Shown: positions 14,949-48,448 of the stretch, piece by piece | Layout of the letters: each line of letters opens with the position of its first letter | Position numbering within the stretch: the first letter of the stretch is position 1 | Source of the DNA: Rickettsia typhi | GTDB taxonomy: Bacteria; Pseudomonadota; Alphaproteobacteria; Rickettsiales; UBA1997 | NCBI GenBank assembly: GCA_945862535.1 | Contig: CAMAYG010000005.1 | Span: 19,952 to 83,951 of the forward strand | Direction of reading: 5' to 3' | DNA: 64,000 nt | Translations under genes and position numbers: made by a program | Notes under the pieces: generated by a model | Databases searched by the model: none | What the model saw: the letters and a program-made list of their open reading frames with translations, nothing else | What the model was told of the DNA's origin: nothing

Positions 14949-15593
14949 TTATAAATCAATGCCTTTGCCACTTTCAACCTTAACTAAAGAGATTGAGTCT
15001 TTAGAGCTACGATTAACTTGCGAGAAGATATTTTGCAGTTTTAGATCTTTGCGGACGGTTTTAAGGGTAAGTAAAATTGCCCCAATCATCGCCACCAATA
15101 ATATAGCCCCAACAATCTGAAAGGCAACCGCAAAATCGGTGTAAAGGATGTTACCTATCGCATCGGTGTTTTTAATATTAACATCTATTGGAAATTGATA
15201 TTCTTGCAACATTACCGCATTTCCCCTATTGCTATCGTGTTTGGCAAAATTAATTGACAAAACAAGTTCTAAGAAAAATACTACCGCAACCAAAGATAAT
15301 AGGGCAAAATGCAGTGGTTTAAGCTTTGCAAGGATTTGATTTGGCGAAATTTTGTCGGCATTTAACATCATCACAACAAATAAAAACAGAACCGCAATCG
15401 CCCCAACATAAACAATTACCAGCAACATTGCCAAGAACTCGGCCTTTAATAGCACAAATAAGAAAGAGGCATTAACAAAAGCAAATATTAGCGACAATAC
15501 CCCGTAAACACTATTTTTAAAAGATACAACCCCGATTGCCGAAACAACAAGCAAAGAGGAAAAAAGATAGAATAAGATTTCTGTATTGGTCAT
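14949..15593 (-). CDS. nuoJ: NADH-quinone oxidoreductase subunit J
   Basis: The ORF track extends to 15725 but overlaps nuoI. The ATG at 15593 (MTNTEILFYLFSSLLVVSAIGVV...) gives a NuoJ-sized protein. The conserved motif AEFLAMLLVIVYVGAIAVLFLFVVMML is present. Confidence 0.85.
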   Translation of the reverse strand: MTNTEILFYLFSSLLVVSAIGVVSFKNSVYGVLSLIFAFVNASFLFVLLKAEFLAMLLVIVYVGAIAVLFLFVVMMLNADKISPNQILAKLKPLHFALLSLVAVVFFLELVLSINFAKHDSNRGNAVMLQEYQFPIDVNIKNTDAIGNILYTDFAVAFQIVGAILLVAMIGAILLTLKTVRKDLKLQNIFSQVNRSSKDSISLVKVESGKGIDL

Positions 15594-15603
15594 ATAGATG
15601 ATG

Positions 15604-16167
15604 TTAGCGATATTTTTTATCGAGTTCGATATTGTGACGAAGTGCTTCTTCGAAGCGATCGCCATTTTCCAGTAGTTTTTCTTTGTTGTAATAAAGCTCT
15701 TGCCTAGTCTCGGTGGCAAATTCAAAATTAGGACCTTCGACTATTGCATCAACTGGGCAAGCCTCCTGACACAAACCGCAGTAAATACATTTTAGCATAT
15801 CGATGTCGTATCTTGTGGTTTTGCGAACCCCATCCGGCCTTTCTTCTGCCTCGATAGTTATTGCCTGAGCCGGGCATATTGCTTCGCATAATTTGCAGGC
15901 AATGCATCTTTCTTCGCCATTGGGGTATCTTCTAAGAGCATGTTCGCCACGAAAACGAGGGCTAATTGGGTTTTTTTCAAAGGGGTAATTGATGGTTACT
16001 TTTTTTTTAAAAAAATATCTTAGGGTCATTAAATGCCCAAAAAATATTTCTTTTAACAGGAAGGAACGACAGCCCCAGTAAAACTTCTTCCAGCAAGAAA
16101 TTTGTGCTAAAGAATTTGAGAATTTTGGTTTTTCTGAATCGCAGTGCGTTTGATTGCTTTTAATCAT
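15604..16167 (-). CDS. nuoI: NADH-quinone oxidoreductase subunit I (2x[4Fe-4S])
   Basis: Motifs are [36 protein letters not shown] and [17 protein letters not shown]. The N-terminal ~25 aa is an unusual extension. Confidence 0.9.
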
Positions 16168-17830: not shown

Positions 17831-17935
17831 GTCATCTTCGCACAAGCTTGCGAAGATGCAGGATCTATGGCAATAAAATCAATATTAAATGGAAGTTCGC
17901 TAAAATGTCTCATTAAATCTATGGATCTTCGCAAG
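17831..17935. repeat. family-1 palindromic MITE-like element (diverged copy)
   Basis: GTCATCTTCGCACAAGCTTGCGAAGATGCAGGATC-...AATAAAATCAATATTAAAT..TTCGCTAAAATGT.. -GGATCTTCGCAAG has the same architecture and interior as the copies at 39427 and 47561. Confidence 0.7.
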
Positions 17936-18057
17936 ATTTCGCACGAAGGTGACTACGGGGGAACCGTGGATCTTCGCAAGCTTTCGCACGAAGGTGACTA
18001 CGGGGGAACCGTGGATCTTCGCAAACTTTCGCACGGAAGGATGACGGTGGAAGGTAG
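17923..18057. repeat. tandem repeat, ~45 bp x 3 (GGATCTTCGCAAGNTTTCGCACGAAGGTGACTACGGGGGAACCGT)
   Basis: The first two copies are nearly identical and the third is diverged. The unit is a variant of the family-1 hairpin. The ORFs at 17750..18112 (+) and 17900..18115 (-) merely translate it (repeated peptide DLRKLSHEGDYGGTV). Confidence 0.85.
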
Positions 18058-18317
18058 ATCCTGCAACTTTTGCGGAGGTTACGGTGTGGTTAGTGTAGCA
18101 GGAATGGGCTAACACTCATTTCTATCGGCAACAAGCGGTTGAAACAGTCTGTTGCCTTTAGAATTTTGGGAGCTGAAACCTTCTGTTGCGAAAATGAATG
18201 GGGCTAGTTTATTCCTGCTACAATCCCCACATTGTCACCTTCGCGCGAAGTTGCAGGGTCCATTGATTTTATTACCATCATCGCGCAACTTCGTGGCGAG
18301 GTTACGACAGAAGGGAG

Positions 18318-35924: not shown

Positions 35925-36084
35925 ATTTAATTTATTTTGCTAGACTGTAGTAATTTAATACTACCCAATATAATGCTAGAAATCGCTAATCTATTGACTC
36001 TTGAGAAGTTTTTTATAAATTAGCTTTATTAAAATCACCCGCAGTAATTTATAATAAATTATTTAACAAAATATTAGCCATATT

Positions 36085-36852
36085 ATGTCGATACAAGTAA
36101 TGTTATTTGATAATTTTATTAAAAACAAAATAAATTTATCAAAAGATAAGTTAATGACAATGAAAAAAAAAGAAAAACAAAAAGAAGAACCAAAAGAAAT
36201 AAAGTTTTGTAGCTCTTTGCAGTTTAATCAAAGACAAAAAATGAACGGCATCGATCTATTATCAAAAATAGATAATGAGACTACTAAAGCAGTATTTTTC
36301 GATCCTCAATATCGTGGTATATTAGATAAACAAAAATATGGCAATGAAGGAATTTTACGAGACAAAAGAAGATGTAATCTTGAGCAAATGCCAGAAGAAA
36401 TGATTGTTGAATTTATTAAAGAAATAGATAGAGTTTTACAGCCTTCCGCCTATTTATTTTTGTGGATCGATAAGTTTCATTTATGTGAAGGAGTTTCTGG
36501 TTGGTTTAGTAATACAGCTTTACAAACGGTCGATTTGATGATATGGGAAAAGCCAAATATTGGCATGGGTTATCGCACCAGAAATAAATGCGAATTTTTA
36601 TTAATTTTACAAAAGAAGCCAATAAAAGCTAAATCAACCTGGACAATCCATAATATTCCTAATGTTTGGAAAGAGAAAGTGATAACTAAAATCCACCCAC
36701 ATACAAAACCCCTAGAAATGCAGAAAATTTTAATTAATGCAACAACTAATGAAGGGGATATTGTTATTGACCCTGCGATGGGAAGTGGTTCTGTTTTACA
36801 ATCTTGCCTAGAAACAAATAGAACTTTTGTTGGTTGCGATATTAACGGCTAA
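36085..36852 (+). CDS. beta-class DNA methyltransferase (N6-adenine or N4-cytosine), type II R-M
   Basis: The catalytic motif IV variant VFFDPQYRG lies N-terminal, and the AdoMet motif I (IVIDPAMGSGSVLQSC) lies near the C-terminus. This IV->I order marks the beta class. Confidence 0.75.
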   Translation: MSIQVMLFDNFIKNKINLSKDKLMTMKKKEKQKEEPKEIKFCSSLQFNQRQKMNGIDLLSKIDNETTKAVFFDPQYRGILDKQKYGNEGILRDKRRCNLEQMPEEMIVEFIKEIDRVLQPSAYLFLWIDKFHLCEGVSGWFSNTALQTVDLMIWEKPNIGMGYRTRNKCEFLLILQKKPIKAKSTWTIHNIPNVWKEKVITKIHPHTKPLEMQKILINATTNEGDIVIDPAMGSGSVLQSCLETNRTFVGCDING

Positions 36853-36864
36853 AATCAAAAAAAA

Positions 36865-37581
36865 ATGGCTAAAATTAAAGATGCAAAGGCAAAAAATTCG
36901 AGCGGCTCATATGCTAGAGTCTTTAACAATAAAGCACTTGGAGATTTAATTACCAAGGTTCATAGCACCTCTATTTCTAACGGATCTGAATTAGAAAATT
37001 TGATTTTACATTATATAGTCAAAGATTTTATAGTAGAAGACTGTGATGAATTTTTACACAATTTTAAAAGATTTAATAATACAGAAGCTGATATTATAAG
37101 ATTAATACCAAAAAAAATATTAAAAAAATCTAAAACATTAAAGCCTCAAAAAAACCCTGAAAATAAAACTTTTGAACCAGATTTCGTCGTGTTAAAAATT
37201 GACTCAATACAACAATGTTGCTATATTATCGAGTTAAAAGATGGGTTCGTTTTTGATACAAAAAAAGTGATTGGTGAAAGAAGGCATTTAGAAGATTTTG
37301 AAAATTATATTGCTAAACAAATACCTTTTGCAACTAAAATCAAGTTTTGTTGCTTTAATGAAACCAGTAAAGAAAAAATCAAAAATGGCTTAAAAGGCGC
37401 TTTTGATGTTAATGAAATTATGACAGGAGAAGAGTTTTGTGCCCTAGTTAAAATCGACTACGATAACATTATAAGGCTAAGAAAAAATGATAGTGTAGAG
37501 AATATCGATTATTTTATTGATGAATTATTAAAAATAGCAAATATAAAAGAGTTAATCGTAGAAAAGTTGGGAAATAAGTAA
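36865..37581 (+). CDS. putative type II restriction endonuclease (PD-(D/E)XK)
   Basis: It starts 12 nt after the methyltransferase. EPDFVVLKIDSIQQCCYIIELKDG fits a PD...(E)XK nuclease core. No specific enzyme family was recognised. Confidence 0.45.
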   Translation: MAKIKDAKAKNSSGSYARVFNNKALGDLITKVHSTSISNGSELENLILHYIVKDFIVEDCDEFLHNFKRFNNTEADIIRLIPKKILKKSKTLKPQKNPENKTFEPDFVVLKIDSIQQCCYIIELKDGFVFDTKKVIGERRHLEDFENYIAKQIPFATKIKFCCFNETSKEKIKNGLKGAFDVNEIMTGEEFCALVKIDYDNIIRLRKNDSVENIDYFIDELLKIANIKELIVEKLGNK

Positions 37582-37643
37582 TTATTGCCAAATGTTAAAT
37601 ATCAAGAACTGCAGGCTTTAGCTCGCAGAAAAATTATCAATCA

Positions 37644-39269
37644 ATGTCTAATATCAAAAATACTCGCTTCATTTTTATTACTGGCGGGGTGGTTTCTTCT
37701 TTGGGAAAAGGTTTGGCTTCTGCATCTCTTGGGGCTTTGTTGCAAGCTCGGGGCTATAAAGTAAAGCTTAGAAAGCTCGATCCTTATTTAAATATCGACC
37801 CAGGCACAATGAGCCCCACTCAACACGGCGAAGTTTTTGTAACCGAAGACGGTGCAGAAACCGACCTTGACATTGGGCATTACGAAAGATTTACTGCGGT
37901 AAATGCTAAAAAAACCGACAGTGTAACCGCAGGTAAAATTTACAGTAAATTACTAGCAAAAGAAAGAAAGGGCGACTATTTAGGCGGAACGGTGCAAGTA
38001 ATACCGCATGTTACCGACCTAATCAAAGAATTTATTTTGAACGATGTCGCCGATGTCGATTTTGCCTTATGTGAAATTGGCGGAACGGTTGGCGATATTG
38101 AGGCCTTGCCGTTTTTCGAGGCAATTCGTCAGCTCGATTACGATCTTGGGGCAAAAAGATGTGCTTTTCTACATTTAACCTTATTGCCCTTTATTGAAAG
38201 TGCCGATGAGCTTAAAACTAAACCAACTCAGCATTCTGTTAAGGAATTACGATCAATCGGCATTCAGCCCTCTGTTTTATTATGTCGAGCCGAAAGAAAA
38301 ATTAGCCCAAGCCATCTCGACAAAATTGCCAAAATGTGTTCGATGCCTCTAAATTCGGTCATCGCCGCCCCTAATGTTAAAAATATCTACGAAGTTCCGT
38401 TAGTCTATCATCAAAATGGGCTCGATAGTGAAATATTAAGGTTTTTTAATATTATCGCCCCAGAGCCAGATTTAGCAAAATGGCATGCCATTAGCGATGC
38501 AATAAAAAACCCAGAAAAGGAAGTCCGCATTGCTTTGGTTGGTAAATATAATGGCTATCGCGATTCTTATAAATCTATCCTAGAAGCTTTAGATCATGCT
38601 TCTTTTGCTTTAAAAACCAAGATCAAAATAATCTGGATTGATGCTCGTAAAAAAACTAACCCAGCCGAAATATTTTCTAGCGAAAAAATCGATGGTATTT
38701 TGGTGCCCGGAGGCTTTGGAGTAGACGGCACCGAAGGCAAGATTGCCATGATTTCTTATGCAAGGCAAAATCAGGTTCCTTATCTTGGAATTTGCTTTGG
38801 AATGCAGATGGCAGTAATAGAATATGCCCGCAATGTTTTAGGAATTGCCGATGCCACTTCTAGCGAAATAGAAAAAGATGGCACGATGCTAATTGGCACA
38901 ATGGAGCAATGGCAAAAAGATAGCGGAGAAATTAGCAAGAAAAGCGAAAATCTTGGTGGCACAATGAGGCTTGGGGCTTATAAATGCAACATCGACCCTA
39001 ATTCTTTAGTGGCAACAATCTATCAAAAGCCAACAATTAGCGAAAGGCACCGCCATCGCTATGAAGTAAATATTAATTATCGTCAAAAACTAGAGCAAGA
39101 AGGGCTAAAATTTTCGGGAATGTCTCCCGATAACCAACTAACAGAAATTGTTGAAATTACCGACCATAAGTTCTTTATTGGGGTGCAATTTCACCCAGAG
39201 TTAAAATCTAAGCCATTCGACCCTCACCCACTTTTCCTAGCCTTTGTAAAATCGTTAATTGCCGATTAG
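37644..39269 (+). CDS. pyrG: CTP synthase
   Basis: Motifs are [45 protein letters not shown] and HRHRYEVN. Confidence 0.95.
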
Positions 39270-39426
39270 TTTATTGTGGCAACAAGAGGTCTAGCCACTT
39301 GTTTTTCTAGAAGACAAAGCCAATGAAATAGCGGAGTTAAATAACCATCCCCTCTTAATTATTTCTGGGGGAGGGTTGGAAACACCGTCACCCTGCGCGA
39401 AGTCGCAGGGTCATAGTCCTCCAGCT

Positions 39427-39535
39427 GTCATCCTGCACGAAGTTGCAGGATCCAGAGCGATAAAATCAACACTAATCGGAACTTCGCTAAAATGTATCAT
39501 TAATCTATAGATCCTGCAACTTCGTGCAGGATGAC
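39427..39535. repeat. family-1 palindromic MITE-like element, full copy (109 bp)
   Basis: It reads GTCATCCTGCACGAAGTTGCAGGATC - 57-bp AT-rich core (CAGAGCGATAAAATCAACACTAATCGGAACTTCGCTAAAATGTATCATTAATCTATA) - GATCCTGCAACTTCGTGCAGGATGAC. The terminal 26-bp hairpins are inverted repeats of each other. Confidence 0.85.
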
Positions 39536-39640
39536 GACAGAGGGCGGTTTTGTGGTAATAAATGCAAATTTTAAAAAGTCGCGAAGATCCACCTCCGCTG
39601 TCATCCTGCGCGAAGTCGCAGGATCTATAGTCCTCCAGCC

Positions 39641-39750
39641 GTCATCCTGCGCGAAGTCGCAGGATCTATTAATTACTAAATACATTTTGGCGAAGTTTCT
39701 TTTAATATTGACTTCATTACTCTGGATCCTGCGACTTTGCGCAGGATGAC
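39641..39750. repeat. family-1 palindromic MITE-like element, full copy, core inverted relative to 39427 copy
   Basis: It reads GTCATCCTGCGCGAAGTCGCAGGATC - CTATTAATTACTAAATACATTTTGGCGAAGTTTCTTTTAATATTGACTTCATTACTCTG - GATCCTGCGACTTTGCGCAGGATGAC. Confidence 0.85.
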
Positions 39751-39759
39751 AGCGGAGCT

Positions 39760-40086
39760 GTCGTCTGGACTGCTTATTCTAGGAACCAAGGTCGTGTCAT
39801 TTCCTATTACATCGGCGAAGGAGTAAGAACCGCAACTAATTTATATCTCCAAGTAAAAAACATCGTTCCCAATGTCGCTAAAATCTGCACCGATGCCAAT
39901 AGTTGCTACGATATTGCATTTAAAAGATTTGGTGTGGCAGATTTGGAGTGAAATATTTGGAGTGAAATATTTGGAGTAACGGAGCCTCATATCGTTACTA
40001 AAAGAGAGACTCACTTGATAGAATCGTCAAATAGTAGCATCAGAGATAATCTTGCCAAAACCAAAAGATTTTCCAAAACATTATAG
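39760..40086 (+). pseudogene. remnant of an IS1-like transposase (C-terminal part, disrupted)
   Basis: My translation has two parts: ..VVWTAYSRNQGRVISYYIGEGVRTATNLYLQVKNIVPNVAKICTDANSCYDIAFKRFGVADLE* and, in another frame, HIVTKRETHLIESSNSSIRDNLAKTKRFSKTL*. The pattern (..TD..Y... H.V.K.ET..IES.N..IR..L.R..R.T..FSK) is IS1-family-like. A 14-bp triplicated insert (39941-39980) breaks the frame. Confidence 0.45.
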
Positions 40087-40386
40087 ATGCTAGACACTAC
40101 CCTAAAACTCTTTTTTAACAGAAATTTACTATGGCAACACTAAAATAACAGTGCCCCTTGAGGGAGGGTAAATTTGCTAGCAATTTCGGGGAGGGGTCAG
40201 AAGTATTTTCAACAAAATTAGGGCTAAGGTTGTGATGAGTTTTCTTACCCCGCCCCGCATCGCCAATTTATTGGCTCTGCGACCCTCCCTCAAGGGGAGG
40301 GTTGGAAACATTATGCTTTTCGCCTTCGACCCTCCACCGCCGTCATCCTGCGCGAAGCTTGCGAAGGTCCATGGTTCCCTCCAGCC

Positions 40387-40496
40387 GTCATCCTGCGCGA
40401 AGTCGCAGGATCTATAGATTCCTAAATACATTTTAGCGAAGTTTCTTTTAATATTGATTTCATTACTTTAGATCCTGCAACTTCGTGCAGGATGAC
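40387..40496. repeat. family-1 palindromic MITE-like element, full copy (110 bp)
   Basis: It has the same hairpins and core as the 39641 copy (..GGATCTATAGATTCCTAAATACATTTTAGCGAAGTTTCTTTTAATATTGATTTCATTACTTTAGATCC..). Confidence 0.85.
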
Positions 40497-40624
40497 GGTG
40501 CAGGAAGTTTTTTGTGGTTGCAAATAAAACACTTTTTCTTACGATTTTTTACTTAAAAAACAATGTTTTATGCTATTGTAGGTAGTGAAATAGCCAATTG
40601 GTGTTAGTTGTTTTGTGGTGCCTA

Positions 40625-42478
40625 TTATGAGTTATTTTTAATAATTTTGTCGATTAATTCAAAAATTGCTTTGAAATTTTCAAAATCTGAATATTGGAAG
40701 TTCGCAGTATCAGACGCAAACTTTGATTTTTTATTATAATCTTTGGTAATGATTTTAATTGTATTGCCGCCAACTTGTTCTTTATCTTCTAATAAGTTTA
40801 TAATTTTGTCATCACTAAACAAATATTCAATACAAACTTCGCTATCTTTTCCCCATTTTACACTGACAAGATTTATTCTATTTGTTGGAATTGGCAATAA
40901 AAATACAAACCCATTTTGACTTCCATGCTTTAAACATAACCCCTTATTGATATTATCCTCGTAATCAAAGTACTTCTTACCTTTGCTATTTTTAATCTCC
41001 TCATATTTTTCATAGGCATCATCAAAATCTAACATGCCAATAAAGGTTTTCTTGTTTTTTAGAAAAATATCACCTCTTTTAAAAGTATTAGCAATGAAGT
41101 GCATATCAAACGCATCTTGGATGTAAAATGGTATTTGGCTATTAGGATAAAGTTTCCTCCAAGCATTTTCTAAAATAATTTTATCTGTTTTTCCTTCTAC
41201 AAACAATACAGGTTTATCATCTTGAGCTTGCATGATTTTTTTAAGGTCTTCTTCAAATTTCTTTGTCTCCTTAAAATAATCATAGGCTTTATCAAATTCT
41301 CTGAATCTCTCCGCTGTTATAACATCACCAGTTGGCATCTCTCTAATTTCTATACCATTCGTGCCGAATTTTTTTTCCATTCCTAATAAAAACAATGGGG
41401 AATGAGTTGTAATAATAAATTGCACCTTTGGGAATAGGCTTATTAACGCTGGCAATACATTACTCTGCAAATCAGAATGCAAATGTAAGTCTATTTCGTC
41501 TATAATAACAATACCAGACATTTTGTCATTTGTATGTGCAATATTGCCACGCTCACCATATCTCACAACAGTACAAAATAAACTGAATAACACTGATTGC
41601 CCCGTTGATAAATTATTTAAACTTGGAATTATTTCCTGTTTGTTTGTACCATCTATAACTTTTATACGGGAAAGTGGATGATTTCTATAATTTAAATCAA
41701 GCTCTGCATCTCTCTTGAGTATTTTAGTTAGTATTTGCTCTATATTTTCTTTTGATGTTACGAGCAGTGAACGTGTCTCTACATCATTATTTTGAATATC
41801 ATAAGTACTACCTTCTCTGTGTTTTGCGATAACTGAAGCATCTAGAAAAACATCAAGAATCCAAGAGTTGATATCATCATAAGCAGATTCAATAATAAGT
41901 GGATCATTAAGTCTTCCGGAATATCTTTGCTTGTGAACAAGTTTATTTTTTCCGCTATCATAAACTTTATTAATCCAATGGGGCATCTCAAATCTATTTG
42001 GCGGAAAGTAGCAATAACTATTGCGTAAGAAAGTGTTTTCGAGTTCTTGATTTGTTAGATTTGTGATTTGTTTACCTTTCTCTTTATCAATGTTCAATGT
42101 GCATTCATTCATATTATTCTTTAGTTCCGAATCCGTAACTTCTCCTGTCGTTTCCAAATATTCATATTTCTTATTGTTGTTTTCAAATTGCAAATAAGAA
42201 ATTGAATTTGACGCACCGATCCTTGTATTGCCACCACCAACTGTTTTAAAAAAGGAATATCCGTTACTGTTTCTTTTTAATACTTCATCTTGTTTAAATG
42301 TGCTGTTTTGAAATTCTAGTATTGCATCAGCAATATGAGATAATAAAATGCTTTTGCCAGTTCCATTTTCACCAACTATTATAAGTGGTTTTGGCTCTCC
42401 GTTTTCTTTAAATGGCATTGAAATATCGAGTTTTTCAATTGCCCCGATGTTTTTGATAAAAATCTTTTTTAAATACAT
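40625..42478 (-). CDS. ABC-type ATPase fused to a C-terminal TOPRIM/DUF4435-like nuclease domain (OLD-family / fused PARIS-like defence candidate)
   Basis: 617 aa. It has Walker A (VGENGTGKS), a signature-like NLSTGQSVLF, Walker B (IVIIDEIDLHLH) and an H-loop (FIITTHSP). The C-terminal ~190 aa carries PVLFVEGKTDKIILENAW (TOPRIM Glu) and IGMLDFDDAY (DxD). Confidence 0.7.
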   Translation of the reverse strand: MYLKKIFIKNIGAIEKLDISMPFKENGEPKPLIIVGENGTGKSILLSHIADAILEFQNSTFKQDEVLKRNSNGYSFFKTVGGGNTRIGASNSISYLQFENNNKKYEYLETTGEVTDSELKNNMNECTLNIDKEKGKQITNLTNQELENTFLRNSYCYFPPNRFEMPHWINKVYDSGKNKLVHKQRYSGRLNDPLIIESAYDDINSWILDVFLDASVIAKHREGSTYDIQNNDVETRSLLVTSKENIEQILTKILKRDAELDLNYRNHPLSRIKVIDGTNKQEIIPSLNNLSTGQSVLFSLFCTVVRYGERGNIAHTNDKMSGIVIIDEIDLHLHSDLQSNVLPALISLFPKVQFIITTHSPLFLLGMEKKFGTNGIEIREMPTGDVITAERFREFDKAYDYFKETKKFEEDLKKIMQAQDDKPVLFVEGKTDKIILENAWRKLYPNSQIPFYIQDAFDMHFIANTFKRGDIFLKNKKTFIGMLDFDDAYEKYEEIKNSKGKKYFDYEDNINKGLCLKHGSQNGFVFLLPIPTNRINLVSVKWGKDSEVCIEYLFSDDKIINLLEDKEQVGGNTIKIITKDYNKKSKFASDTANFQYSDFENFKAIFELIDKIIKNNS

Positions 42479-42574
42479 ATCTTAAATAGTTAAATTTTCC
42501 ACAGCCCTAAGCTTATCAACACTTAAGTCGTAAAGAGGGTAGCGAAGTTGCGAGTATCAATGGCTCCCTCCCTT

Positions 42575-42648
42575 GTCATCCTTGCGCAAAGTCGCGAGTA
42601 TCCAGAGCAATAAAATCAATAGATCCTGCGACTTCGCGCGAGGATGAC
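42575..42648. repeat. family-1 element, short copy (core truncated)
   Basis: It reads GTCATCCTTGCGCAAAGTCGCGAGTATC-CAGAGCAATAAAATCAAT-AGATCCTGCGACTTCGCGCGAGGATGAC. Confidence 0.7.
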
Positions 42649-42777
42649 GGCAGAAGGTAGATCCTGCGACTTCGCGCGAGGATGACGGTAGAAGGTAGAT
42701 CCTGCGACTTCGCGCAGGATGACGGCAGAAGGTAGATCCTGCGACTTCGCGCGAGGATGATGGTGTAGTGGGAAGGT
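42621..42777. repeat. spacer-less tandem array, 37-38 bp x 4, of the family-1 hairpin (AGATCCTGCGACTTCGCGCGAGGATGACGGCAGAAGGT)
   Basis: Copies start at 42621, 42659, 42697 and 42734, and the last is diverged at its 3' end. The ORF 42576..42818 just translates it (repeated LPSSCAKSQDL / ILARSRRIY). Confidence 0.9.
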
Positions 42778-42877
42778 TCGCGGAGAAAAACTAGGCTTCT
42801 AGACTTCGAAGGCTTCAACTAGACTGCAACGGCGGGAACCTTAGAAAAACCCACCTTCGCATTTAGCTAAATGGAGC

Positions 42878-44827
42878 TTAAGCAAGCATTTTTTGGAGAC
42901 GAAGAGAGAAGTCTGAGCTGTCTTTTATTGGTTCGTCTTCGATGATACAAGCCAGATCGAACAAAGTTTTTACTTTGTCGGTGCAGATTTCTTTTAGACT
43001 AAGGTTTTGATAGTTGTCGTTGAGATATTTTATAATTGAGTTATTGCTGTTGATTTCGAGGATTTTAGCAGTTGCAGAATTGATTTGCTTTTGCTCAAGC
43101 AAGAATCTTTCGAGCCTAATGTCCATGCCGATAGAATCTACCGCTAAACATACCGGGCTATTGGTAAGTTTTTTTGAGATTCTGACATCGGCAACTTGAG
43201 TGCCAAGAACTTCTTTAAAGAATCCTATTAGCCCTTCTAATGCTGTCTCGGTAATGTCTTTGATTTTTTCGTCCTTTTTTGTGCCGTCTTCGTTTTGCTC
43301 TTCTGCTTTTTGTTCGTCTAGAGGCTTGTCAATATTAATTAAATCGATATCGTTACGATTAATCGACTGAAATTCCCATTCGATTTTGCTTGATTTGTTC
43401 TGATAAGGCAAAGCAACGGTTACCCAAAATTCATCGACAGCATCTGTAAGAAATAACACCTCGACATCCTTATTGTAGAAGGCTTCTAGCTGAGGAGAAT
43501 TTTTGATTTTATTAACATTTTCTCCGGTTAGGAAATATATTTTATTTTGCCCCGCTTTTGCTCTTTCGAGATATTCGCTAAGGCTAATTAGTTCATTAGG
43601 AGATTTCGAGCTGTAAAAACGAGAAATTTCGAGGATTTTTTCGCGGAATTCCGATGCTTCGCACAGCCCTTCTTTTAACACCGCACCAAAATTATTCCAA
43701 AATTTAAGATATTCTTCTTGGTTTTCATTGGCTTTTTTCTTGAGTTCGCCTAAAACTTTGCCAATTAGGGATTTTTTGATTTTTTCAATTAAGGCACTGT
43801 GTTGCAGGTTTTCACGGCTAATGTTGAGTGGCAAATCTTCCGAATCGACTACTCCTCTTAGAAACCGCAAATAAGCAGGAACAAGGCTTAAATCTTCGCT
43901 AATAAAAACTCTTTTAACATAAAGTTTTAAAGCGGTGCGACGATCGGGGTGGAATAGGTCAAAAGGCTTAGTGCTAGGAACAAATAACAGATTGCTGTAT
44001 GAAACTAGGCCCTCGACCTTGTTGTGGATTGTCATGAATGGCTCGCCCGGTAAATGAGCGATGTGGCGGAAGAATTCTTGATATTGTTCTGCGGTTATTT
44101 GTTCTTTTGGTCTTTGCCAAATTGCCGATGCCGAATTTAGAGTTTCAATTTTTGCTCCTTCGCTGATATTTTCTGGGATGAAATCTATTTTAAAGTTGAT
44201 GTGATCGGAATAGGTTTGCACGATGTGCTTAATGTGGAAGCGATCGAGGAAATCTGAGGCATCGTCTTTTAAAAACAAGGTAATAATTGTGCCTTGTTTA
44301 AAATCTGACGATAATTCTTGATTGTGTTGATTAAGCTCGAAACCGCTATTGCCGTCTGAGGCCCAGAAATAGGTGTCTTGTTCTTGATATTTACGAGAAA
44401 TAACCTCTACTTTATCGGCGATCATAAAGCTAGAATAAAAGCCAACCCCAAACTGCCCTATTAATTGCAGGTCTTTTTTGCTGTCTCCGCTAAGGTTTTT
44501 TAAGAAATTCTCGGTGCCAGAGCGAGCAATAGTGCCTAGGTTGTCGATTAAATCTTGTTTATTCATTCCGATACCGTTGTCGCTAATGATTAATTGCTTT
44601 TTTTCTTTATTAACTTTGATGTTAATTTTTAATTCTTCTAAATTTTCTTGATGTTGTTGATTAGCCAGATACCGCAACTTGTCGCAAGCATCGGCAGCAT
44701 TAGATATTAACTCGCGAAGGGCAACATCGCGATTAGTATAAAGCGAATTTATCATAAGGTTTAAAACCTTGCTAACTTCGACATCGAATTGATAGTTGTT
44801 GTTTGTGTTGTTAGATTGTTCTGTCAT
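42878..44827 (-). CDS. htpG: molecular chaperone HtpG (Hsp90)
   Basis: Motifs are LRELISNAADACDKLRY, DNGIGM and GQFGVGFYS. Length is 649 aa. Confidence 0.95.
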   Translation of the reverse strand: MTEQSNNTNNNYQFDVEVSKVLNLMINSLYTNRDVALRELISNAADACDKLRYLANQQHQENLEELKINIKVNKEKKQLIISDNGIGMNKQDLIDNLGTIARSGTENFLKNLSGDSKKDLQLIGQFGVGFYSSFMIADKVEVISRKYQEQDTYFWASDGNSGFELNQHNQELSSDFKQGTIITLFLKDDASDFLDRFHIKHIVQTYSDHINFKIDFIPENISEGAKIETLNSASAIWQRPKEQITAEQYQEFFRHIAHLPGEPFMTIHNKVEGLVSYSNLLFVPSTKPFDLFHPDRRTALKLYVKRVFISEDLSLVPAYLRFLRGVVDSEDLPLNISRENLQHSALIEKIKKSLIGKVLGELKKKANENQEEYLKFWNNFGAVLKEGLCEASEFREKILEISRFYSSKSPNELISLSEYLERAKAGQNKIYFLTGENVNKIKNSPQLEAFYNKDVEVLFLTDAVDEFWVTVALPYQNKSSKIEWEFQSINRNDIDLINIDKPLDEQKAEEQNEDGTKKDEKIKDITETALEGLIGFFKEVLGTQVADVRISKKLTNSPVCLAVDSIGMDIRLERFLLEQKQINSATAKILEINSNNSIIKYLNDNYQNLSLKEICTDKVKTLFDLACIIEDEPIKDSSDFSLRLQKMLA

Positions 44828-44996
44828 TGCTAGAATAATTAAGATTGATGATTTTTAGTAAATAACCGCTGTTATATAATATCTTTATCAAAAAAAACAA
44901 GGGCTATAAATTTTGTTTTTGATTTTATTGCTGTGGATCTTGCCCGCCGATCTTGGCAATTTAGCTATAAATAGTAAATGCAGATAGCTAAATTAA

Positions 44997-45148
44997 CAAT
45001 CCACCGCCTACAGCACTGCAATTTCCAATAAAAATCCATTCCAAGAAAGCATTCCAAGAAAGCTCGCTCGATTTTCCAAGCCTTTTGCTAATGTTAATTT
45101 TTGAAAGATCGCTAGCAAGAAGCTTAAAGAACTGCTGATTTATTGCAT
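44997..45148 (-). pseudogene. deleted remnant of the 3' end of a paralogue of the type IIG R-M gene
   Basis: By-eye alignment shows 45038-45148 is ~80% identical to 48658-48755 (..CATTCCAAGAAAGCTC....AGCTTAAAGAACTGCTGATTTATTG..). 44997-45026 matches 48463-48482 (CCACC.CTGCAATTTCC). About 170 bp is missing between the two matches. Confidence 0.55.
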
Positions 45149-45185
45149 TTAGCGGCTAGATAATTTAAAAAGATTTAGTTTTTGA

Positions 45186-46148
45186 TTAGTTTTCTGTGGA
45201 GATTTCGCGGGCAATTCCCTTAAAATTCTCTAGAGCAGGTTGAACGAAGTTTAATTGTTTGTTGCTAGTGGTTGCGAAAAAATCTTGACGATTGTAAGTC
45301 AAATCATCTTTTTCTTGTTCGCCTTCTTCGTTGGTAAATGTTTGACTACTTTTTTTACCAAAAGGTGGATTGGCTAAAACATAATCGTAAGTTATTGGCG
45401 AAGAGGCAATTAAGGCATCTGCTGGCGAAATAAAATTAGCACTGTCGATGTCGCCAATATTATGCAAAAACAAATTCATCAAAGCTAATCGTCTTGTTCC
45501 CGCTACAATCTCATTGCCATAAAAAGTTTGAAGTTTCAAAAATTTATTTTGTTCTTTGTCTAATTTATTGCTTGCAACCAAATAATCATAAGTAGCCAAA
45601 AAGAAACCTCCTGTGCCACAAGCGGGGTCGGCAATTGTTTTGCCAAGCTTCGGGGCAACACATTCAACCATTGCTTTGATTAGCGGTCTTGGGGTAAAAT
45701 ATTGCCCCGCACCACTTTTTACATCTTTGGCATTTTGCTCTAAAAGGCTTTCGTAAATATCGCCTTTAACATCGGCGCCAAGCACCAACCATTGCTCGCT
45801 ATCGATCATATCGATAATTTTGGCAAGCATTGCCGGGTCTTGAATTTTATTTTGACTCTTCACAAAAATTTGCCCTAAAATTCCTTTGGCATTGCTCAAT
45901 TCGCGAAGTAGATGGCTGTAGTGCAATTCTAACTCCGCACCTTTTTTTTTAGTCAAACTTTCCCAATTAAAATCTTTTGGAATGCCTAATTTTCGATGGT
46001 GCGGAGGCTTTTCATATTCATCCGCCATTTTTAAAAATAGCAAATAGGTAAGTTGTTCTAAATAGTCGCCATAACCTACTCCCACATCGCGAAGCGGATT
46101 GCAGAAAGACCAAACTTTTGAAACTATTGAAGAGGTATTTTTACTCAT
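45186..46148 (-). pseudogene. hsdM: type I R-M methyltransferase HsdM, C-terminally truncated
   Basis: The HsdM N-domain (LRDVGVGYGDYLEQLTYLLFLKMADE), motif I (ADPACGTGGFF) and motif IV (LANPPFGKK) are present. The protein stops ~55 aa after NPPF at ...NKQLNFVQ|PALENFKGIAREISTEN*, where full-length HsdM proteins continue for ~150-200 aa. No hsdS or hsdR is in the window. Confidence 0.7.
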
Positions 46149-46156
46149 TTTTTAAA

Positions 46157-47233
46157 TTATTGCTCGTTAATTAAGTTGATAATTAATTTTATCATCAATT
46201 CTTTTTCTTTTGGATTGCTTTGTGCAACCAATAATGCCAAGGCTACCAGCCCATTATCATTAATTTTTAATTCGCCAGATTTTTTTAAAGAATGTTGGTT
46301 TTTAGCAAGAAACCAAATAAATAAAAATGCTCCGATTCTTTTATTGCCGTCAGAAAATGGATGATTTTTGATAATAAAATAAAGCAAATGCGAAGCCTGT
46401 TCTTCAATGCTTTTGTAAAGATATTCACCGGCAAAGCTTTGGGTAATATTTCCTAAAATTCCTGCAAAACTGCAATCTTTCTGATTGCCAAAAAGCTCGC
46501 TTGCTTCCTTTTTTTGAATCAACTGCTTTTTTAATTCGTCAATTGCTTCGCAAGCCTCTTTATAGCTAATTTCGTAAGTTATATTTTGATCTAATTTTGC
46601 AAGATGAAGCGAGTCGGAATCGAATTGGTTTAGTAAAATAAAACTACTGGTGTAATTGGTGATAATGTCTAAAAAGCCCTTACTTTCAAGGGCTGAGAGC
46701 TCTTTTAAGTCAACAGAATTTTGAATTAATTTAATGGTTTTTTGTAGTTCAATAAGATTTTCTTGATATTCCTTAACCCGCTTTTCATTAATCGCAAAGC
46801 CTTTCGTCAAATAGTTTTTAAGCCTTTCCGTTGCCCAAATTCTAAATTGTGTTCCTTGTTTTGAATTAACTCGATAGCCAACCGAGATAATAGCATCAAG
46901 ATTAAAATGCTCAACTTGATAAATTTTTTGATCGGATCCACTTGTTGCAGAAAATGCAACAACTTGATTTCTATCTAATTCTTCTTCGGCAAAAATATTT
47001 TTCAAATGTCTCGAAATTACCGATTTATCGCGATCAAAAAGTTGAGCGATCTGATTTAAAGAAAGCCACAAAGTTTCTTTTTCAAACTTAATTGCAATTT
47101 GAGCAGAGCCGTTTTTTTCCTGATAAATCTCGATTTTATTTTGTAGAGCAGTGTTTTGCGGAGCCTTATCTTTTATGGCCTTATTAGCTGTTGTGGTTTT
47201 AATTTTCGTAGTGTTTTTGTTAATTTTTGTCAT
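46157..47233 (-). CDS. RhuM-like N-terminal domain fused to Fic/Doc-family domain
   Basis: The N-terminal part (WLSLNQIAQLFDRDKSVISRHLKNIF...ISVGYRVNSKQGTQFRIWAT) is RhuM-like. The C-terminal motif HPFSDGNKRIGAF is the Doc-type variant (Lys instead of Gly) of HxFx(D/E)GNGR. It ends 8 nt upstream of hsdM'. Confidence 0.75.
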   Translation of the reverse strand: MTKINKNTTKIKTTTANKAIKDKAPQNTALQNKIEIYQEKNGSAQIAIKFEKETLWLSLNQIAQLFDRDKSVISRHLKNIFAEEELDRNQVVAFSATSGSDQKIYQVEHFNLDAIISVGYRVNSKQGTQFRIWATERLKNYLTKGFAINEKRVKEYQENLIELQKTIKLIQNSVDLKELSALESKGFLDIITNYTSSFILLNQFDSDSLHLAKLDQNITYEISYKEACEAIDELKKQLIQKKEASELFGNQKDCSFAGILGNITQSFAGEYLYKSIEEQASHLLYFIIKNHPFSDGNKRIGAFLFIWFLAKNQHSLKKSGELKINDNGLVALALLVAQSNPKEKELMIKLIINLINEQ

Positions 47234-47560
47234 GATTATGTGGTTATTAATGGTAAAAATTGGTGAAATTTTATTAACTAAACAACCTTCAAAAGCCTTT
47301 TTAATATGCTTTATTTAGTTTTGATAGTTATTTAGTGCAGATTCTATGCCCTTAGATTATTGCAAATAGTTATTTTAGATTCAAGAATATTAAAGATTTA
47401 TTTTGTTCGGCGAGGTATTTACTATCTACGGACCTTACAACTTCGCTTCGCTCCGCGGTCGAAGGTGAAGACGGGGTTTTAGGCAGTTAAAATCGCTTTT
47501 CCTTGCGAACTTTCTCTGCCGTCATCCTGCACGGAAGCTTGCGAAGATCCACCTTCTGCC

Positions 47561-47668
47561 GTCATCTTCGCACAAGTTGCAGGATCCAGGGCAATGAAAT
47601 CAATATTAAAGTGAACTCCGCTAAGTGTATTATAAATCCATGGATCCTGCAACTTCGTGCAGGATGAC
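47561..47668. repeat. family-1 palindromic MITE-like element, full copy
   Basis: It reads GTCATCTTCGCACAAGTTGCAGGATC-CAGGGCAATGAAATCAATATTAAAGTGAACTCCGCTAAGTGTATTATAAATCCATG-GATCCTGCAACTTCGTGCAGGATGAC. Confidence 0.85.
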
Positions 47669-47826
47669 AAGGGAGCGAGTGCAGGATGACAAGGGAGCGA
47701 GTGCCGTTATTAACTATGGATATTTGCAACTTCGCTTTCGCTTCGTGCGCAGGATGACGGCGGGGGGAGTTTTTGGGCAAGGTGACGAGCTGAGGCGGTT
47801 TTGTAAGCCAATAAAACCTCGTTCAT

Positions 47827-47958
47827 TCGGCAACAAGGGGTTTCAACCCCTTGTCTCGTCACGAAGGCGAGCGAAATGAAATCGACTGCAAAGTTATTAA
47901 TGGCAGAATCGGTCCACCCTCGCATTCACCACAAGGGGTTAAAACCCCTTGTTGCCGA
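47827..47958. repeat. family-2 MITE-like element (132 bp) with ~28-bp terminal inverted repeats
   Basis: The left end is TCGGCAACAAGGGGTTTCAACCCCTTGT. The reverse complement of the right end is TCGGCAACAAGGGGTTTTAACCCCTTGT (27/28 identical). Each TIR itself contains a 9-bp-stem hairpin, CAAGGGGTT..AACCCCTTG. Confidence 0.8.
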
Positions 47959-47972
47959 CAATTTTCCACGCC

Positions 47973-48089
47973 GTCATCTTCGCACAAGTTGCAGGATCCA
48001 GAGTAATAAAATCAATAAAAACAGCACTTCGCTAAATATATTTACTATCCATGGATCCTGCAACTTCGCTTCGCTTCGTGCAGGATGAC
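47973..48089. repeat. family-1 palindromic MITE-like element, full copy
   Basis: It reads GTCATCTTCGCACAAGTTGCAGGATC-CAGAGTAATAAAATCAATAAAAACAGCACTTCGCTAAATATATTTACTATCCATG-GATCCTGCAACTTCGCTTCGCTTCGTGCAGGATGAC. Confidence 0.85.
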
Positions 48090-48223
48090 AAGGGAGCGAG
48101 TGCAGGATGACAAGGGAGCGAGTGCCGTTATTAACTATGGATATTTGCAACTTCGTGCAGAATCCATAGCAGAAAAGTCGAACAACAGCAACACCGCCAT
48201 ATTCTCGCGAACTCTCTTAATTG

Positions 48224-48445
48224 TCATCCTGCACGAAGTTGCAGGATCCAGAGTGTTGTTTTTAAACTACCTTTTTCTATAACAAACTTAGCGTCATTGA
48301 TGTTAAGTTGTGCAAGAATTTCGTTAAGTCCGTTATAAAATACCACTACCTGTTCGGGTGTTAAATACTCTTTATACTCAATTTTCAGATCTGCCGTCTC
48401 TGGTGGAAATAAGTTTGCTTGTGGAGATAAGTTTGCTTCTTTCAT
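48224..48445 (-). CDS. small hypothetical ORF coupled to the type IIG gene; C-terminus and stop supplied by a solo family-1 hairpin
   Basis: The start lies 3 nt after the upstream stop codon. The last ~8 codons (..LWILQLRAG*) are encoded by GTCATCCTGCACGAAGTTGCAGGATCC (48223-48249). Confidence 0.35.
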   Translation of the reverse strand: MKEANLSPQANLFPPETADLKIEYKEYLTPEQVVVFYNGLNEILAQLNINDAKFVIEKGSLKTTLWILQLRAG

Positions 48446-48448
48446 ACT

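What the first reader, a model, noticed from the sequence alone, without database searches (positions are those of the whole stretch)
39380..39760. Family-1 GC-rich palindromic MITE-like elements (RPE/REP-like): two full copies in opposite orientation plus solo hairpins
Seen:
- The 26-bp hairpin GTCATCCTGCGCGAAGTCGCAGGATC is a GC-rich stem in a genome that is otherwise very AT-rich.
- It occurs as solo copies at ~39387, 39600, 47521 and 48223.
- It also forms the two termini of a ~110-bp element with a conserved AT-rich core (..AATAAAATCAAT...TTCGCTAAAATGTAT..).
- Full copies lie at 39427-39535, 39641-39750 (core inverted), 40387-40496, 47561-47668 and 47973-48089.
- Diverged or short copies lie at 17831-17935, 42575-48 and ~9563-9625.
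- The ORF track shows the footprint as recurring pseudo-peptides (SSCAKSQDL, VILREVAGSI, RRMTAE).

All copies are intergenic and concentrated around the accessory genes. The family resembles Rickettsia palindromic elements in size and behaviour, but its sequence is not one I recognise.
Basis: seen in the sequence. Interest (0 to 1): 0.6.

Follow-up and report, generated by a model that had tools for sequence, protein, structure and literature searches.

The report
Orphaned Ssn-type hairpin repeats (CGTC REPs)
The GC-rich hairpins and 110-bp hairpin pairs are real and dispersed, and they belong to a known class of repeats cut by small Ssn nucleases; in this symbiont-like genome the nuclease gene survives only as a 43-codon stub.

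Summary
The 26-nt hairpin occurs 11 times in the window, where chance predicts none. It occurs about 90-115 times in the 1.54-Mb genome, as singles, as about 29 full 110-bp inverted doublets and as tandem arrays. It is almost always intergenic.

The family is not unknown. It has the defining anatomy of CGTC-tagged REPs (Di Nocera 2013), the superfamily that holds Rickettsia RPE-4/RPE-6 and Neisseria dRS3. These repeats were linked in 2025 to small GIY-YIG single-strand DNA nucleases, as Ssn with SRM/NTS repeats (Chenal 2025).

The same hairpin brackets an Ssn-like gene on both sides in four genomes: two Proteobacteria of different classes, an actinobacterium, and a distant relative from this genome's own order. 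In that relative the cassette sits between sucC and sucD, an insertion that seven relatives lack.

This genome has no Y1/RAYT transposase and no IS with matching ends. It keeps only a 43-codon ssn stub next to a doublet, so its repeats look orphaned.

Three minor new points:
- this hairpin type escapes the published SRM search pattern;
- the identical 26-mer occurs in at least six phyla;
- half-hairpin tandem arrays flank it everywhere.

This scan has found the Ssn/SRM pairing many times on other DNA. Verdict: a new member of a known kind.

The parts
39387..39412 (+). Solo hairpin, ACCC/GGGT stem variant (tGTCACCCTGCGCGAAGTCGCAGGGTC)
39427..39535 (+). Full 109-bp inverted doublet: hairpin, 57-nt AT-rich spacer, inverted hairpin
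   Evidence: nhmmer 111 bits. As single-stranded DNA it folds at -36.5 kcal/mol, z -9.2.
39600..39625 (+). Solo hairpin, canonical sequence
   Evidence: Fold -7.9 kcal/mol, z -3.9.
39641..39750 (-). Full doublet with the spacer inverted relative to 39427-39535. Its right end abuts a degraded IS1-like transposase remnant (39757-40086).
40342..40370 (+). Degenerate hairpin (GTCATCCTGCGCGAAGCTTGCGAAGGTCC)
   Evidence: read from the sequence
40387..40496 (-). Full doublet with inverted spacer. It is a heterodimer: one arm GCG..CGC, the other GCA..TGC.
42575..42764 (-). Degenerate arm plus a piece of spacer, then four head-to-tail 37-38-bp hairpin units
   Evidence: (family D2)
47510..47552 (+). 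Degenerate hybrid hairpin with flank
   Evidence: (I13)
47561..47703 (+). Full doublet (47561-47668) followed by two half-hairpin repeats (AAGGGAGCGAGTGCAGGATGAC)
   Evidence: (D8)
47973..48125 (+). Full doublet whose right arm has the long loop (GCGAAGCGAAGCGAAG), followed by the same half-hairpin repeats. Bases 48074-48155 are 100% identical to 47653-47734.
   Evidence: (D8)
48223..48248 (+). Solo hairpin just downstream of the stop of the MmeI-like restriction-modification gene
17831..18086 (+). Diverged doublet (17831-17935; its left arm has a different 9-bp stem, ATCTTCGCA) followed by three 45-bp and further degenerate tandem units
   Evidence: (D6, D9)
18234..18273 (+). Degenerate hairpin followed by the first 12 nt of the spacer in reverse complement (ATTGATTTTATT)
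   Evidence: (I10)

Best explanation
**What it is.** The Family-1 elements are CGTC-tagged REP hairpins, also called Ssn-related motifs. This repeat class is the single-strand DNA substrate of small single-domain GIY-YIG nucleases of the Ssn family.

**Anatomy.** Each unit reads as follows:
- an unpaired tag (C/T)GTC;
- an 8-bp stem, ATCCTGCR;
- a 6-nt loop, CGNAGT, or a longer (GCGAA)n loop;
- a tail, CCA or CTA.

Two units in inverted order around a conserved 57-nt AT-rich spacer make the 110-bp doublet. The doublet has the same layout as the autonomous-looking cassette 'hairpin - ssn gene - inverted hairpin' seen in other genomes. The doublets are therefore best read as gene-less derivatives of that cassette.

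**What is shown here.**
- The anatomy and the genome-wide dispersal.
- The exclusion from genes.
- The covarying stems.
- The bracketing of Ssn-like genes by this very hairpin in four distant genomes.
- The insertion of one such cassette between sucC and sucD.
- The decay of ssn to a 43-codon stub in this genome.

**What is taken from the literature.** Ssn proteins bind the hairpin in single-stranded DNA and cut just 5' of it, next to the tag (PMC11893778).

**What is inferred.**
- The repeats spread through a single-strand DNA cut-and-rejoin or recombination route that depends on the nuclease.
- In this genome they are now orphaned relics that tolerated sites have kept, chiefly the 3' ends of convergent genes and the borders of restriction-modification and other accessory cassettes.
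- There they probably serve as recombination substrates and as 3' hairpins.
For: **Anatomy.**
- The tag base before GTC is C in 55 and T in 32 of 91 hairpins. The tail is CCA in 44 and CTA in 29.
- Four stem haplotypes, with 37, 18, 17 and 3 copies, are all perfectly paired.

**Distribution in this genome.**
- 29 full doublets share a conserved spacer.
- Only 8 of 91 hairpins lie in ORFs, against 86% ORF coverage.
- 9 of 19 occupied intergenic regions are convergent, against 9% in the background.

**Literature.**
- PMC3733652 defines CGTC REPs and notes that they have no transposase.
- PMC11893778 defines Ssn and the SRM repeats.

**The same hairpin brackets Ssn-like genes.**
- The genes are single-domain GIY-YIG ORFs of 94-109 aa that match PF01541 at E 1e-13 to 1e-16.
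- Both sides are bracketed in G034 (L164), a Propionibacteriaceae MAG (L060) and Pseudohongiella (L169). In a Vitreoscilla MAG (L168) the downstream hairpin is complete and only a partial arm lies upstream.
- These proteins are 49-60% identical to one another.
- Seven relatives have only 10-31 nt between sucC and sucD, where G034 carries the cassette.

**The stub in this genome.**
- G000:C6:3079-3207 encodes MEKQAFVYISANKKHGTIYTGATINLDK... .
- It is 52-64% identical to the N-termini of those Ssn proteins.
- It sits directly after a doublet and five half-hairpin repeats.
Against: - No intact ssn gene was found in this genome or in its three congeners. Yet this genome holds the largest and most uniform hairpin population of the genus, which is awkward for nuclease-driven spread.
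- The assembly is 93% complete. About 20 of 48 hairpin clusters lie within 2 kb of contig ends, so a repeat-flanked gene could be missing.
- Three other carriers lack a small Ssn of this clade: Thiomicrospira, Leucobacter celer and Neisseria sp. HSC-16F19.
- The hairpin does not match the published SRM search pattern, and its loop is 6 nt rather than 4-5.
- No one has shown that Ssn nucleases move or copy their repeats.
- No cleavage test exists for this hairpin type.
- Assignment of the flanked proteins to CDD cd10448 could not be run.
Confidence: 0.82

Rival explanations
1. REP/REPIN system driven by a RAYT (a Y1, IS200-like tyrosine transposase), as the first reader proposed checking.
For: - The layout resembles a REPIN: inverted doublets of an imperfect palindrome with an unpaired tag, intergenic, and stable as single-stranded DNA hairpins.
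Against: - The tag is CGTC/TGTC, not GTAG.
- PF01797 finds nothing in G000, G001, G003, G034, Leucobacter celer or Pseudohongiella, while the control genomes are detected.
- The Y1 genes present in G002, Thiomicrospira, Neisseria sp. and Vitreoscilla have no hairpin within 1.5 kb.
- Di Nocera 2013 reached the same negative result for CGTC REPs.
Confidence: 0.03
2. Classical MITE: an internally deleted copy of a DDE insertion sequence, mobilised in trans through shared terminal inverted repeats.
For: - The size is about 110 bp, with terminal inverted repeats, many copies and a conserved core.
- A degraded IS1-like remnant abuts doublets at four loci.
Against: - There is no target-site duplication. 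The flanks are inverted complements, not direct repeats.
- Self-BLAST finds no IS whose ends match. The long repeats are MORN-protein paralogues.
- The IS1-like remnant ends in an unrelated terminus (...GGCAACACTAAAATAACAGTGCC). It is joined to the doublets at two different truncation points, so the doublets are not its ends.
- In other phyla the same hairpins bracket a GIY-YIG gene, not a DDE transposase.
Confidence: 0.04
3. Host-maintained structural elements. On this reading the hairpins persist because they act as 3' mRNA stabilisers or terminators, or as recombination sites for cassette exchange, whatever nuclease first spread them. This can coexist with the main explanation as the reason they survive after ssn decayed.
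For: - The hairpins are enriched between convergent genes: 9 of 19 regions against 9%.
- The stems covary while the spacer drifts.
- They flank restriction-modification, RhuM/Fic and MORN genes.
- The hairpin-flanked restriction-modification island on C6 is 84-92% identical to G001, against 71-73% for pyrG and htpG.
- In Neisseria, NTS repeats cluster around variable genes (PMC11893778).
Against: - The identical 26-mer in at least six phyla cannot be explained by local host function alone.
- No T-run follows the hairpins, so they are not classical intrinsic terminators.
- Enrichment at 3' ends may only reflect where insertions are tolerated.
Confidence: 0.12
4. Rickettsia-type palindromic elements (RPE) in the strict sense: selfish palindromes that insert in frame into protein-coding genes.
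For: - The host is AT-rich and symbiont-like, and the elements are of similar size.
- RPE-4 and RPE-6 carry the CGTC tag (PMC3733652).
Against: - Only 8 of 91 hairpins overlap ORFs of at least 120 aa. Those ORFs are 135-228 aa artefacts that run through the repeats.
- No housekeeping gene in the window is interrupted.
Confidence: 0.02

Closest known systems
Ssn nucleases with their NTS/SRM hairpin repeats (SsnA of Neisseria meningitidis; CDD cd10448 GIY-YIG_unchar_3; Chenal et al. 2025, Nat Commun 16:2388, PMC11893778)
   Same: - The hairpin carries an oriented 5' tag (C)GTC and a C right after the stem.
- There are dozens to hundreds of copies.
- The architecture hairpin - small GIY-YIG gene - inverted hairpin is present.
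- The repeats cluster around variable or accessory genes and are enriched in symbiont genomes.
   Different: - The stem and loop sequence (ATCCTGCR / CGNAGT) falls outside the published degenerate SRM pattern.
- In this genome the nuclease gene is reduced to a 43-codon stub.
- Cleavage of this hairpin type is untested.
CGTC-tagged REP superfamily (Di Nocera, De Gregorio & Rocco 2013, BMC Genomics 14:522, PMC3733652), which includes Neisseria dRS3, Rickettsia conorii RPE-4/RPE-6 and Wolbachia CGTC-4
   Same: - The tag is CGTC or TGTC.
- The stem is 8 bp and begins A-T.
- The tail is CCA.
- Inverted dimers have 20-100-nt conserved spacers and are often heterodimers.
- The repeats are intergenic, between convergent and unidirectional genes.
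- No transposase is linked to them.
   Different: - The loop is 6 nt, or 16-17 nt in the long-loop variants, against 4-5 nt.
- Large clusters and tandem arrays are common here but 'rare' in that survey.
- Intragenic copies, typical of R. conorii, are not seen.
REPINs and BIMEs with RAYT transposases (Nunvar 2010; Bertels & Rainey 2011; Ton-Hoang 2012)
   Same: - Doublets of imperfect palindromes form long single-strand hairpins.
- Units and linkers are arranged as mosaics and tandem arrays.
- A single-copy or absent partner gene is bracketed by the repeats.
   Different: - The tag differs (GTAG there).
- The partner enzyme is of a different class (HUH/Y1 there).
- REPINs are reported as vertically inherited, whereas this 26-mer is identical across phyla.

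Membership tests
CGTC-tagged REP superfamily (PMC3733652) | Unpaired terminal tetranucleotide CGTC (variants TGTC, CCTC) | tested here: met
   GTC is invariant. The preceding base is C in 55, T in 32 and A in 4 of 91 hairpins.
CGTC-tagged REP superfamily (PMC3733652) | Stem of 8-9 bp with complementary A-T residues in the first and second positions | tested here: met
   The stem is 8 bp. The first pair is A-T in 90 of 91. The second pair is T-A in 66 and C-G in 25, both sides changed together.
CGTC-tagged REP superfamily (PMC3733652) | Loop of 4-5 nt | tested here: not met
   The loop is 6 nt (CGAAGT). Long-loop variants have 16-17 nt. The paper itself lists families with other loop lengths.
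CGTC-tagged REP superfamily (PMC3733652) | Short unpaired tail fitting CCA | tested here: met
   The tail is CCA in 44 and CTA in 29 of 91.
CGTC-tagged REP superfamily (PMC3733652) | Mostly inverted dimers with 20-100-nt spacers; intergenic, between convergent or unidirectional genes; no linked transposase gene | tested here: met
   - 29 full doublets have a spacer of about 57 nt.
- 8 of 91 hairpins lie in ORFs.
- 9 occupied intergenic regions are convergent, 7 tandem and 3 divergent.
- No Y1 transposase or matching IS was found.
Ssn / SRM system (PMC11893778) | The repeat brackets a small single-domain GIY-YIG gene (SRM-ssn-SRM) | tested here: met
   - This is met for this hairpin type on both sides in three other genomes (L164, L060, L169). 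In L168 the upstream arm is only partial.
- In the window's own genome only a stub remains beside a doublet.
Ssn / SRM system (PMC11893778) | The repeat matches the published degenerate SRM search sequence HGTCWYN(0-2)YYVSBRHN(0-5)WNVSBRGN(0-2)RNCYNB | tested here: not met
   None of the three main haplotypes matches, while the Neisseria NTS does. The pattern gives only 4 scattered hits in the genome.
Ssn / SRM system (PMC11893778) | A cognate Ssn gene is present in the genome that carries the repeats | tested here: not met
   PF01541 finds only uvrC and a 43-codon remnant at C6:3079-3207. jackhmmer and tblastn agree. The assembly is 93% complete, so absence is not proven.
Ssn / SRM system (PMC11893778) | The protein belongs to CDD cd10448 and cuts single-stranded DNA next to the hairpin | not testable with these tools
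   - No CDD search is on hand.
- Pfam GIY-YIG matches at E 1e-13 to 1e-16.
- Homologues at 44-53% identity in Sinorhizobium, Rhizobium and Sphingobium plasmids are annotated 'GIY-YIG nuclease family protein'; two further matches lie in Neisseria plasmid records.
- The cleavage activity needs a bench test.
REP/RAYT (REPIN) | GTAG tag and a Y1 transposase gene flanked by the repeats | tested here: not met
MITE of a DDE insertion sequence | Target-site duplication and a parent IS with the same terminal inverted repeats | tested here: not met
   The flanks are inverted, not direct. No IS has matching ends.
Rickettsia palindromic elements, strict sense | In-frame insertion into protein-coding genes | tested here: not met

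The most novel reading that the evidence does not exclude
The unit 'hairpin - ssn - inverted hairpin' may be a true horizontally mobile element whose GIY-YIG nuclease acts as its transposase. That would be a transposase class not yet recognised.

Three observations fit this reading:
- the 26-mer is identical in at least six phyla;
- one cassette is inserted between sucC and sucD;
- half-hairpin tandem arrays (about 10 nt of spacer plus GTCATCCTGCRC, period 17-32 nt) border the hairpins in every host and could be footprints of its cut-and-rejoin chemistry.

A further twist is that in this genome the gene-less doublets kept amplifying or homogenising after the nuclease decayed.
Probability: 0.2. 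Interest if true: 0.75.

Novelty: new member of a known kind. Interest (0 to 1): 0.3.

Why it matters
It settles what the conspicuous GC-rich repeats of this AT-rich, symbiont-like genome are. It also ties them to a nuclease family whose role outside Neisseria is unknown.

The case adds four data points to the open question of whether Ssn nucleases spread their repeats:
- a hairpin type that the published search pattern misses, so current censuses undercount the system;
- the same 26-mer with a 49-60% identical nuclease in at least two phyla;
- a clean presence/absence insertion between sucC and sucD;
- a lineage in which more than 100 well-paired hairpins persist beside a dead nuclease gene.

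For annotating this genome, the repeats mark the borders of restriction-modification, RhuM/Fic and MORN cassettes. They also explain many contig breaks.

Tried and rejected
- **Rfam scan of 36000-50000.** It gave only sub-threshold plant microRNA-precursor hits, an artefact of long hairpins.
- **RAYT/Y1 search.** I searched nine genomes and found no association.
- **Self-BLAST for an IS with matching ends.** The long repeats are MORN-protein paralogues.
- **Shared neighbouring proteins.** I clustered all ORFs in 80 hairpin loci from other phyla and found none; the single Ssn gene among them was too short for that filter.
- **Target-site duplications.** None were found.
- **Empty sites at pyrG and htpG in congeners.** No hairpins are present there, but with 71-73% identity and no synteny no exact empty site could be defined.
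- **Viral contigs.** The hairpin gave 0 matches.
- **Literature search by sequence.** It found nothing relevant.
- **NCBIfam.** It has no model for these proteins.
- **PDB.** The only hit is a distant UPF0213 GIY-YIG protein, 1zg2.
- **Supplements.** Those of the Ssn paper are not held, and those of the 2013 paper do not contain the motif.
- **CRISPR-like reading of the 37-38-bp arrays.** I rejected it because the 'spacers' are conserved.
Full report
**The observation**

The window is AT-rich, with 26-41% GC in 2-kb steps. The 26-nt GC-rich hairpin GTCATCCTGCGCGAAGTCGCAGGATC is found 11 times with up to 3 mismatches, against none in 100 shuffles. Reading the sequence and aligning the copies confirms five full elements of about 110 bp. 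They lie at 39427-39535, 39641-39750, 40387-40496, 47561-47668 and 47973-48089.

Each element is built from a hairpin, a conserved AT-rich spacer (..AATAAAATCAAT..TTCGCTAAAATGTAT..) and an inverted hairpin. Two of the five have the spacer in the opposite sense. The diverged copies at 17831-17935 and 42575-42764 exist, and so does the degenerate hairpin near 47521. The site near 9590-9625 is only a fragment. As single-stranded DNA a lone hairpin folds at about -8 kcal/mol (z about -3.5 to -3.9). Three of the four doublets folded give one long hairpin at -35 to -37 kcal/mol (z about -9); the more diverged copy at 47561 gives -26 kcal/mol (z -5.9).

**The family in the whole genome**

The window is C5:19952-83951 of a metagenome-assembled genome. 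The genome has 1.54 Mb in 37 contigs, 34.7% GC and 93% completeness. Titles of related records suggest Rickettsiales, but I did not verify this.

- Copy number.
  - 91 hairpins lie within 5 substitutions of the consensus, against 0 for the reversed pattern.
  - About 115 have perfect stems when long-loop variants are counted.
  - 29 are full doublets.
- Stem covariation.
  - Two stem positions vary, and they vary together.
  - The four haplotypes have 37, 18, 17 and 3 copies, and all are perfectly paired. Mispaired combinations are singletons.
- Exclusion from genes.
  - Only 8 of 91 hairpins overlap ATG-ORFs of at least 120 aa, which cover 86% of the genome (binomial p about 1e-60). Those ORFs are short and run through the repeats.
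- Orientation of neighbouring genes.
  - Of 19 occupied intergenic regions with both neighbours on the contig, 9 lie between convergent genes.
  - The genome-wide share of convergent regions is 9% (Fisher p = 2e-5).
- Assembly breaks.
  - About 20 of 48 hairpin clusters lie within 2 kb of a contig end. The repeats break the assembly, and the counts are therefore minima.
- Accessory neighbours.
  - Four of 5 MmeI-like loci, 3 of 3 RhuM/Fic loci and 2 of 4 N6-methylase loci lie within about 2 kb of a hairpin, against 8% of the genome.
  - These loci are not independent of one another.

**Fine anatomy**

- The base before GTC is C in 55 hairpins and T in 32. The three bases after the stem are CCA in 44 and CTA in 29.
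- There is no target-site duplication. The flanks are inverted complements (pyrimidine-rich on the 5' side, purine-rich on the 3' side), so the palindrome simply runs on.
- On the tag side of many hairpins lie tandem 'half-hairpins', each about 10 nt of spacer plus GTCATCCTGCRC, with a period of 22-24 nt. Examples are window 47669-47703 and 48090-48125, and C13:14300-16400.

**Taxonomic range**

- Within the order, the hairpin was found only in the window's own genus and in one genome of another family.
  - The genus has 3 of 3 further species positive, with 17, 14 and 2 copies.
  - The other genome is G034 (2.4 Mb, GC-rich loci), with 61 copies, many of them arranged as roughly 70-bp doublets (several read directly).
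  - None of about 400 further genomes in 190 genera had it.
The hosts include:
  - Gamma-, Beta- and Alphaproteobacteria;
  - Actinobacteria, among them the isolates Leucobacter celer, L. soli and Gulosibacter macacae;
  - an Oscillospiraceae MAG;
  - Armatimonadota;
  - Riflebacteria;
  - Desulfobacterota.
- The anatomy is the same everywhere.
  - The first hairpin is followed by a spacer whose composition matches the host.
  - The second hairpin is inverted and often has stem ATTCTGCG and a (GCGAA)n loop.
  - Half-hairpin arrays lie on the outside.
- Viral contigs gave no match.

**The search for a partner enzyme**

- The Y1/RAYT idea fails.
  - PF01797 is absent from G000, G001, G003, G034, L. 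celer and Pseudohongiella.
  - Where Y1 genes exist, no hairpin lies within 1.5 kb.
- No IS has matching ends. The long repeats are MORN-protein paralogues.
- The literature gave the key.
  - Di Nocera et al. 2013 (PMC3733652) defined 'CGTC-tagged REPs'. These have the tag CGTC/TGTC, an 8-9-bp stem starting A-T, a CCA tail, inverted dimers, an intergenic position and no transposase. Rickettsia RPE-4/RPE-6 and Neisseria dRS3 are members.
  - Chenal et al. 2025 (PMC11893778) showed that such repeats (NTS/SRM) bracket a small GIY-YIG gene, ssnA. Its product cuts single-stranded DNA just 5' of the hairpin and limits transformation in N. meningitidis.
- I then tested this link for the present hairpin type.
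  - Ssn-like single-domain GIY-YIG genes of 94-109 aa are flanked by this very hairpin. The loci are G034 (L164), a Propionibacteriaceae MAG (L060), a Vitreoscilla MAG (L168) and Pseudohongiella (L169). Both sides carry it in three of them; in L168 only a partial arm lies upstream.
  - The four proteins are 49-60% identical to one another.
  - In G034 the cassette sits between sucC and sucD. Seven relatives have only 10-31 nt there, so it is an insertion.

**The state in this genome**

The only GIY-YIG matches are uvrC and a 43-codon remnant at C6:3079-3207. Its sequence is MEKQAFVYISANKKHGTIYTGATINLDKMIKITKKGTNE*. Its first 27 residues are 52-64% identical to the N-termini of the bracketed Ssn proteins.

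The remnant stands directly after a doublet and five half-hairpin repeats, with its own ribosome-binding site. It is cut off where an hsdS gene starts. G001 carries the same cassette twice, while G002 and G003 have none.

This restriction-modification island is 84-92% identical between G000 and G001, against 71-73% for pyrG and htpG. That suggests recent exchange of the hairpin-flanked island. The number of half-hairpin repeats differs between the copies, so the arrays vary in copy number.

**Mechanism**

- Shown: the anatomy, the dispersal, the pairing constraint, the bracketing of ssn by this hairpin, one insertion event, and the decay of ssn here.
- From the literature: cleavage on the single strand beside the tag.
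- Inferred:
  - The doublets are gene-less derivatives of the hairpin-ssn-hairpin unit, spread through single-stranded DNA.
  - In this genome they are now orphaned. They survive where they are tolerated, at 3' ends and cassette borders, and may serve recombination.
- Unexplained:
  - What keeps 37 identical copies of one haplotype without an intact nuclease. An unassembled gene, recent loss and gene conversion are all possible.
  - What makes the half-hairpin arrays.

**Comparison and novelty**

Most defining features of CGTC REPs are met; loop length is not. The SRM-ssn-SRM architecture is met for this hairpin type, but the published SRM pattern does not match it. The cognate gene is not intact here.

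It is therefore a new member of a known kind, with a variant hairpin. Earlier notes of this scan, seen only after I had reached the Ssn link, report the same pairing on many other genomes. Those notes agree with this report but are not independent support.

**Limits**

- The genome is a fragmented metagenome assembly.
- Cleavage and mobility are untested.
- CDD assignment could not be run.

Noticed in passing
window 39757-40086 (also G000 C23:19860-20168, C17:27098-27340, C22:23176-23466): A degraded IS1-family transposase remnant covers the C-terminal part only and has internal stops (PF03400, E 0.006, 17.4 bits, below the cut-off). It recurs at four loci at roughly 95% nucleotide identity by eye. 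Each copy abuts a hairpin doublet or half-hairpin array, at two different truncation points. Its own terminus (...GGCAACACTAAAATAACAGTGCC) is unrelated to the hairpin.
   Followed up: partly
window 9680-9790, 18125-18190, 47826-47960; G000 C13:14660-14795, 15150-15340, 15850-15975: A second MITE-like family has ends TTCGGCAACA(N5)TTTCAACC ... It lies next to the hairpin clusters again and again.
   Followed up: no
window 39355-39385, 40144-40305: A third repeat (..GACCCTCCCTCAAGGGGAGGGTTGGAAAC..) flanks the Family-1 copies. It gives dozens of matches in all three congeneric genomes (query positions 3145-3304).
   Followed up: no
G000 C5:2146-4101, C17:277-1989, C34:277-1992, C37:43-1854 and five more loci: A paralogous family of MORN-repeat proteins of 570-650 aa (51-70% identical; two outliers at 33-38%). 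Several copies lie at contig ends beside hairpin elements. They are effector-like proteins typical of intracellular bacteria.
   Followed up: partly
G000 C6:1807-5281 versus G001 C2 (L011, L158, L160): A restriction-modification island (RhuM-like, hsdS and hsdM genes, with the ssn stub and hairpins) is 84-92% identical between two species whose pyrG and htpG are 71-73% identical. This suggests recent lateral exchange of the island.
   Followed up: partly
G034 loci L154, L159, L162, L163, L164, L166, L167: One 2.4-Mb genome carries seven small GIY-YIG (Ssn-like) paralogues. Only L164 is flanked by the hairpin studied here. The flanks of L163 encode a different GTCAT-headed hairpin (read-through peptides ..IASSLRSSQ / ..LLTMT). 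Each paralogue may have its own repeat type.
   Followed up: no
window 39925-39980: A short tandem duplication (TTTGGAGTGAAATA x2-3) lies inside the IS1-like remnant. It is absent from the other three copies.
   Followed up: no
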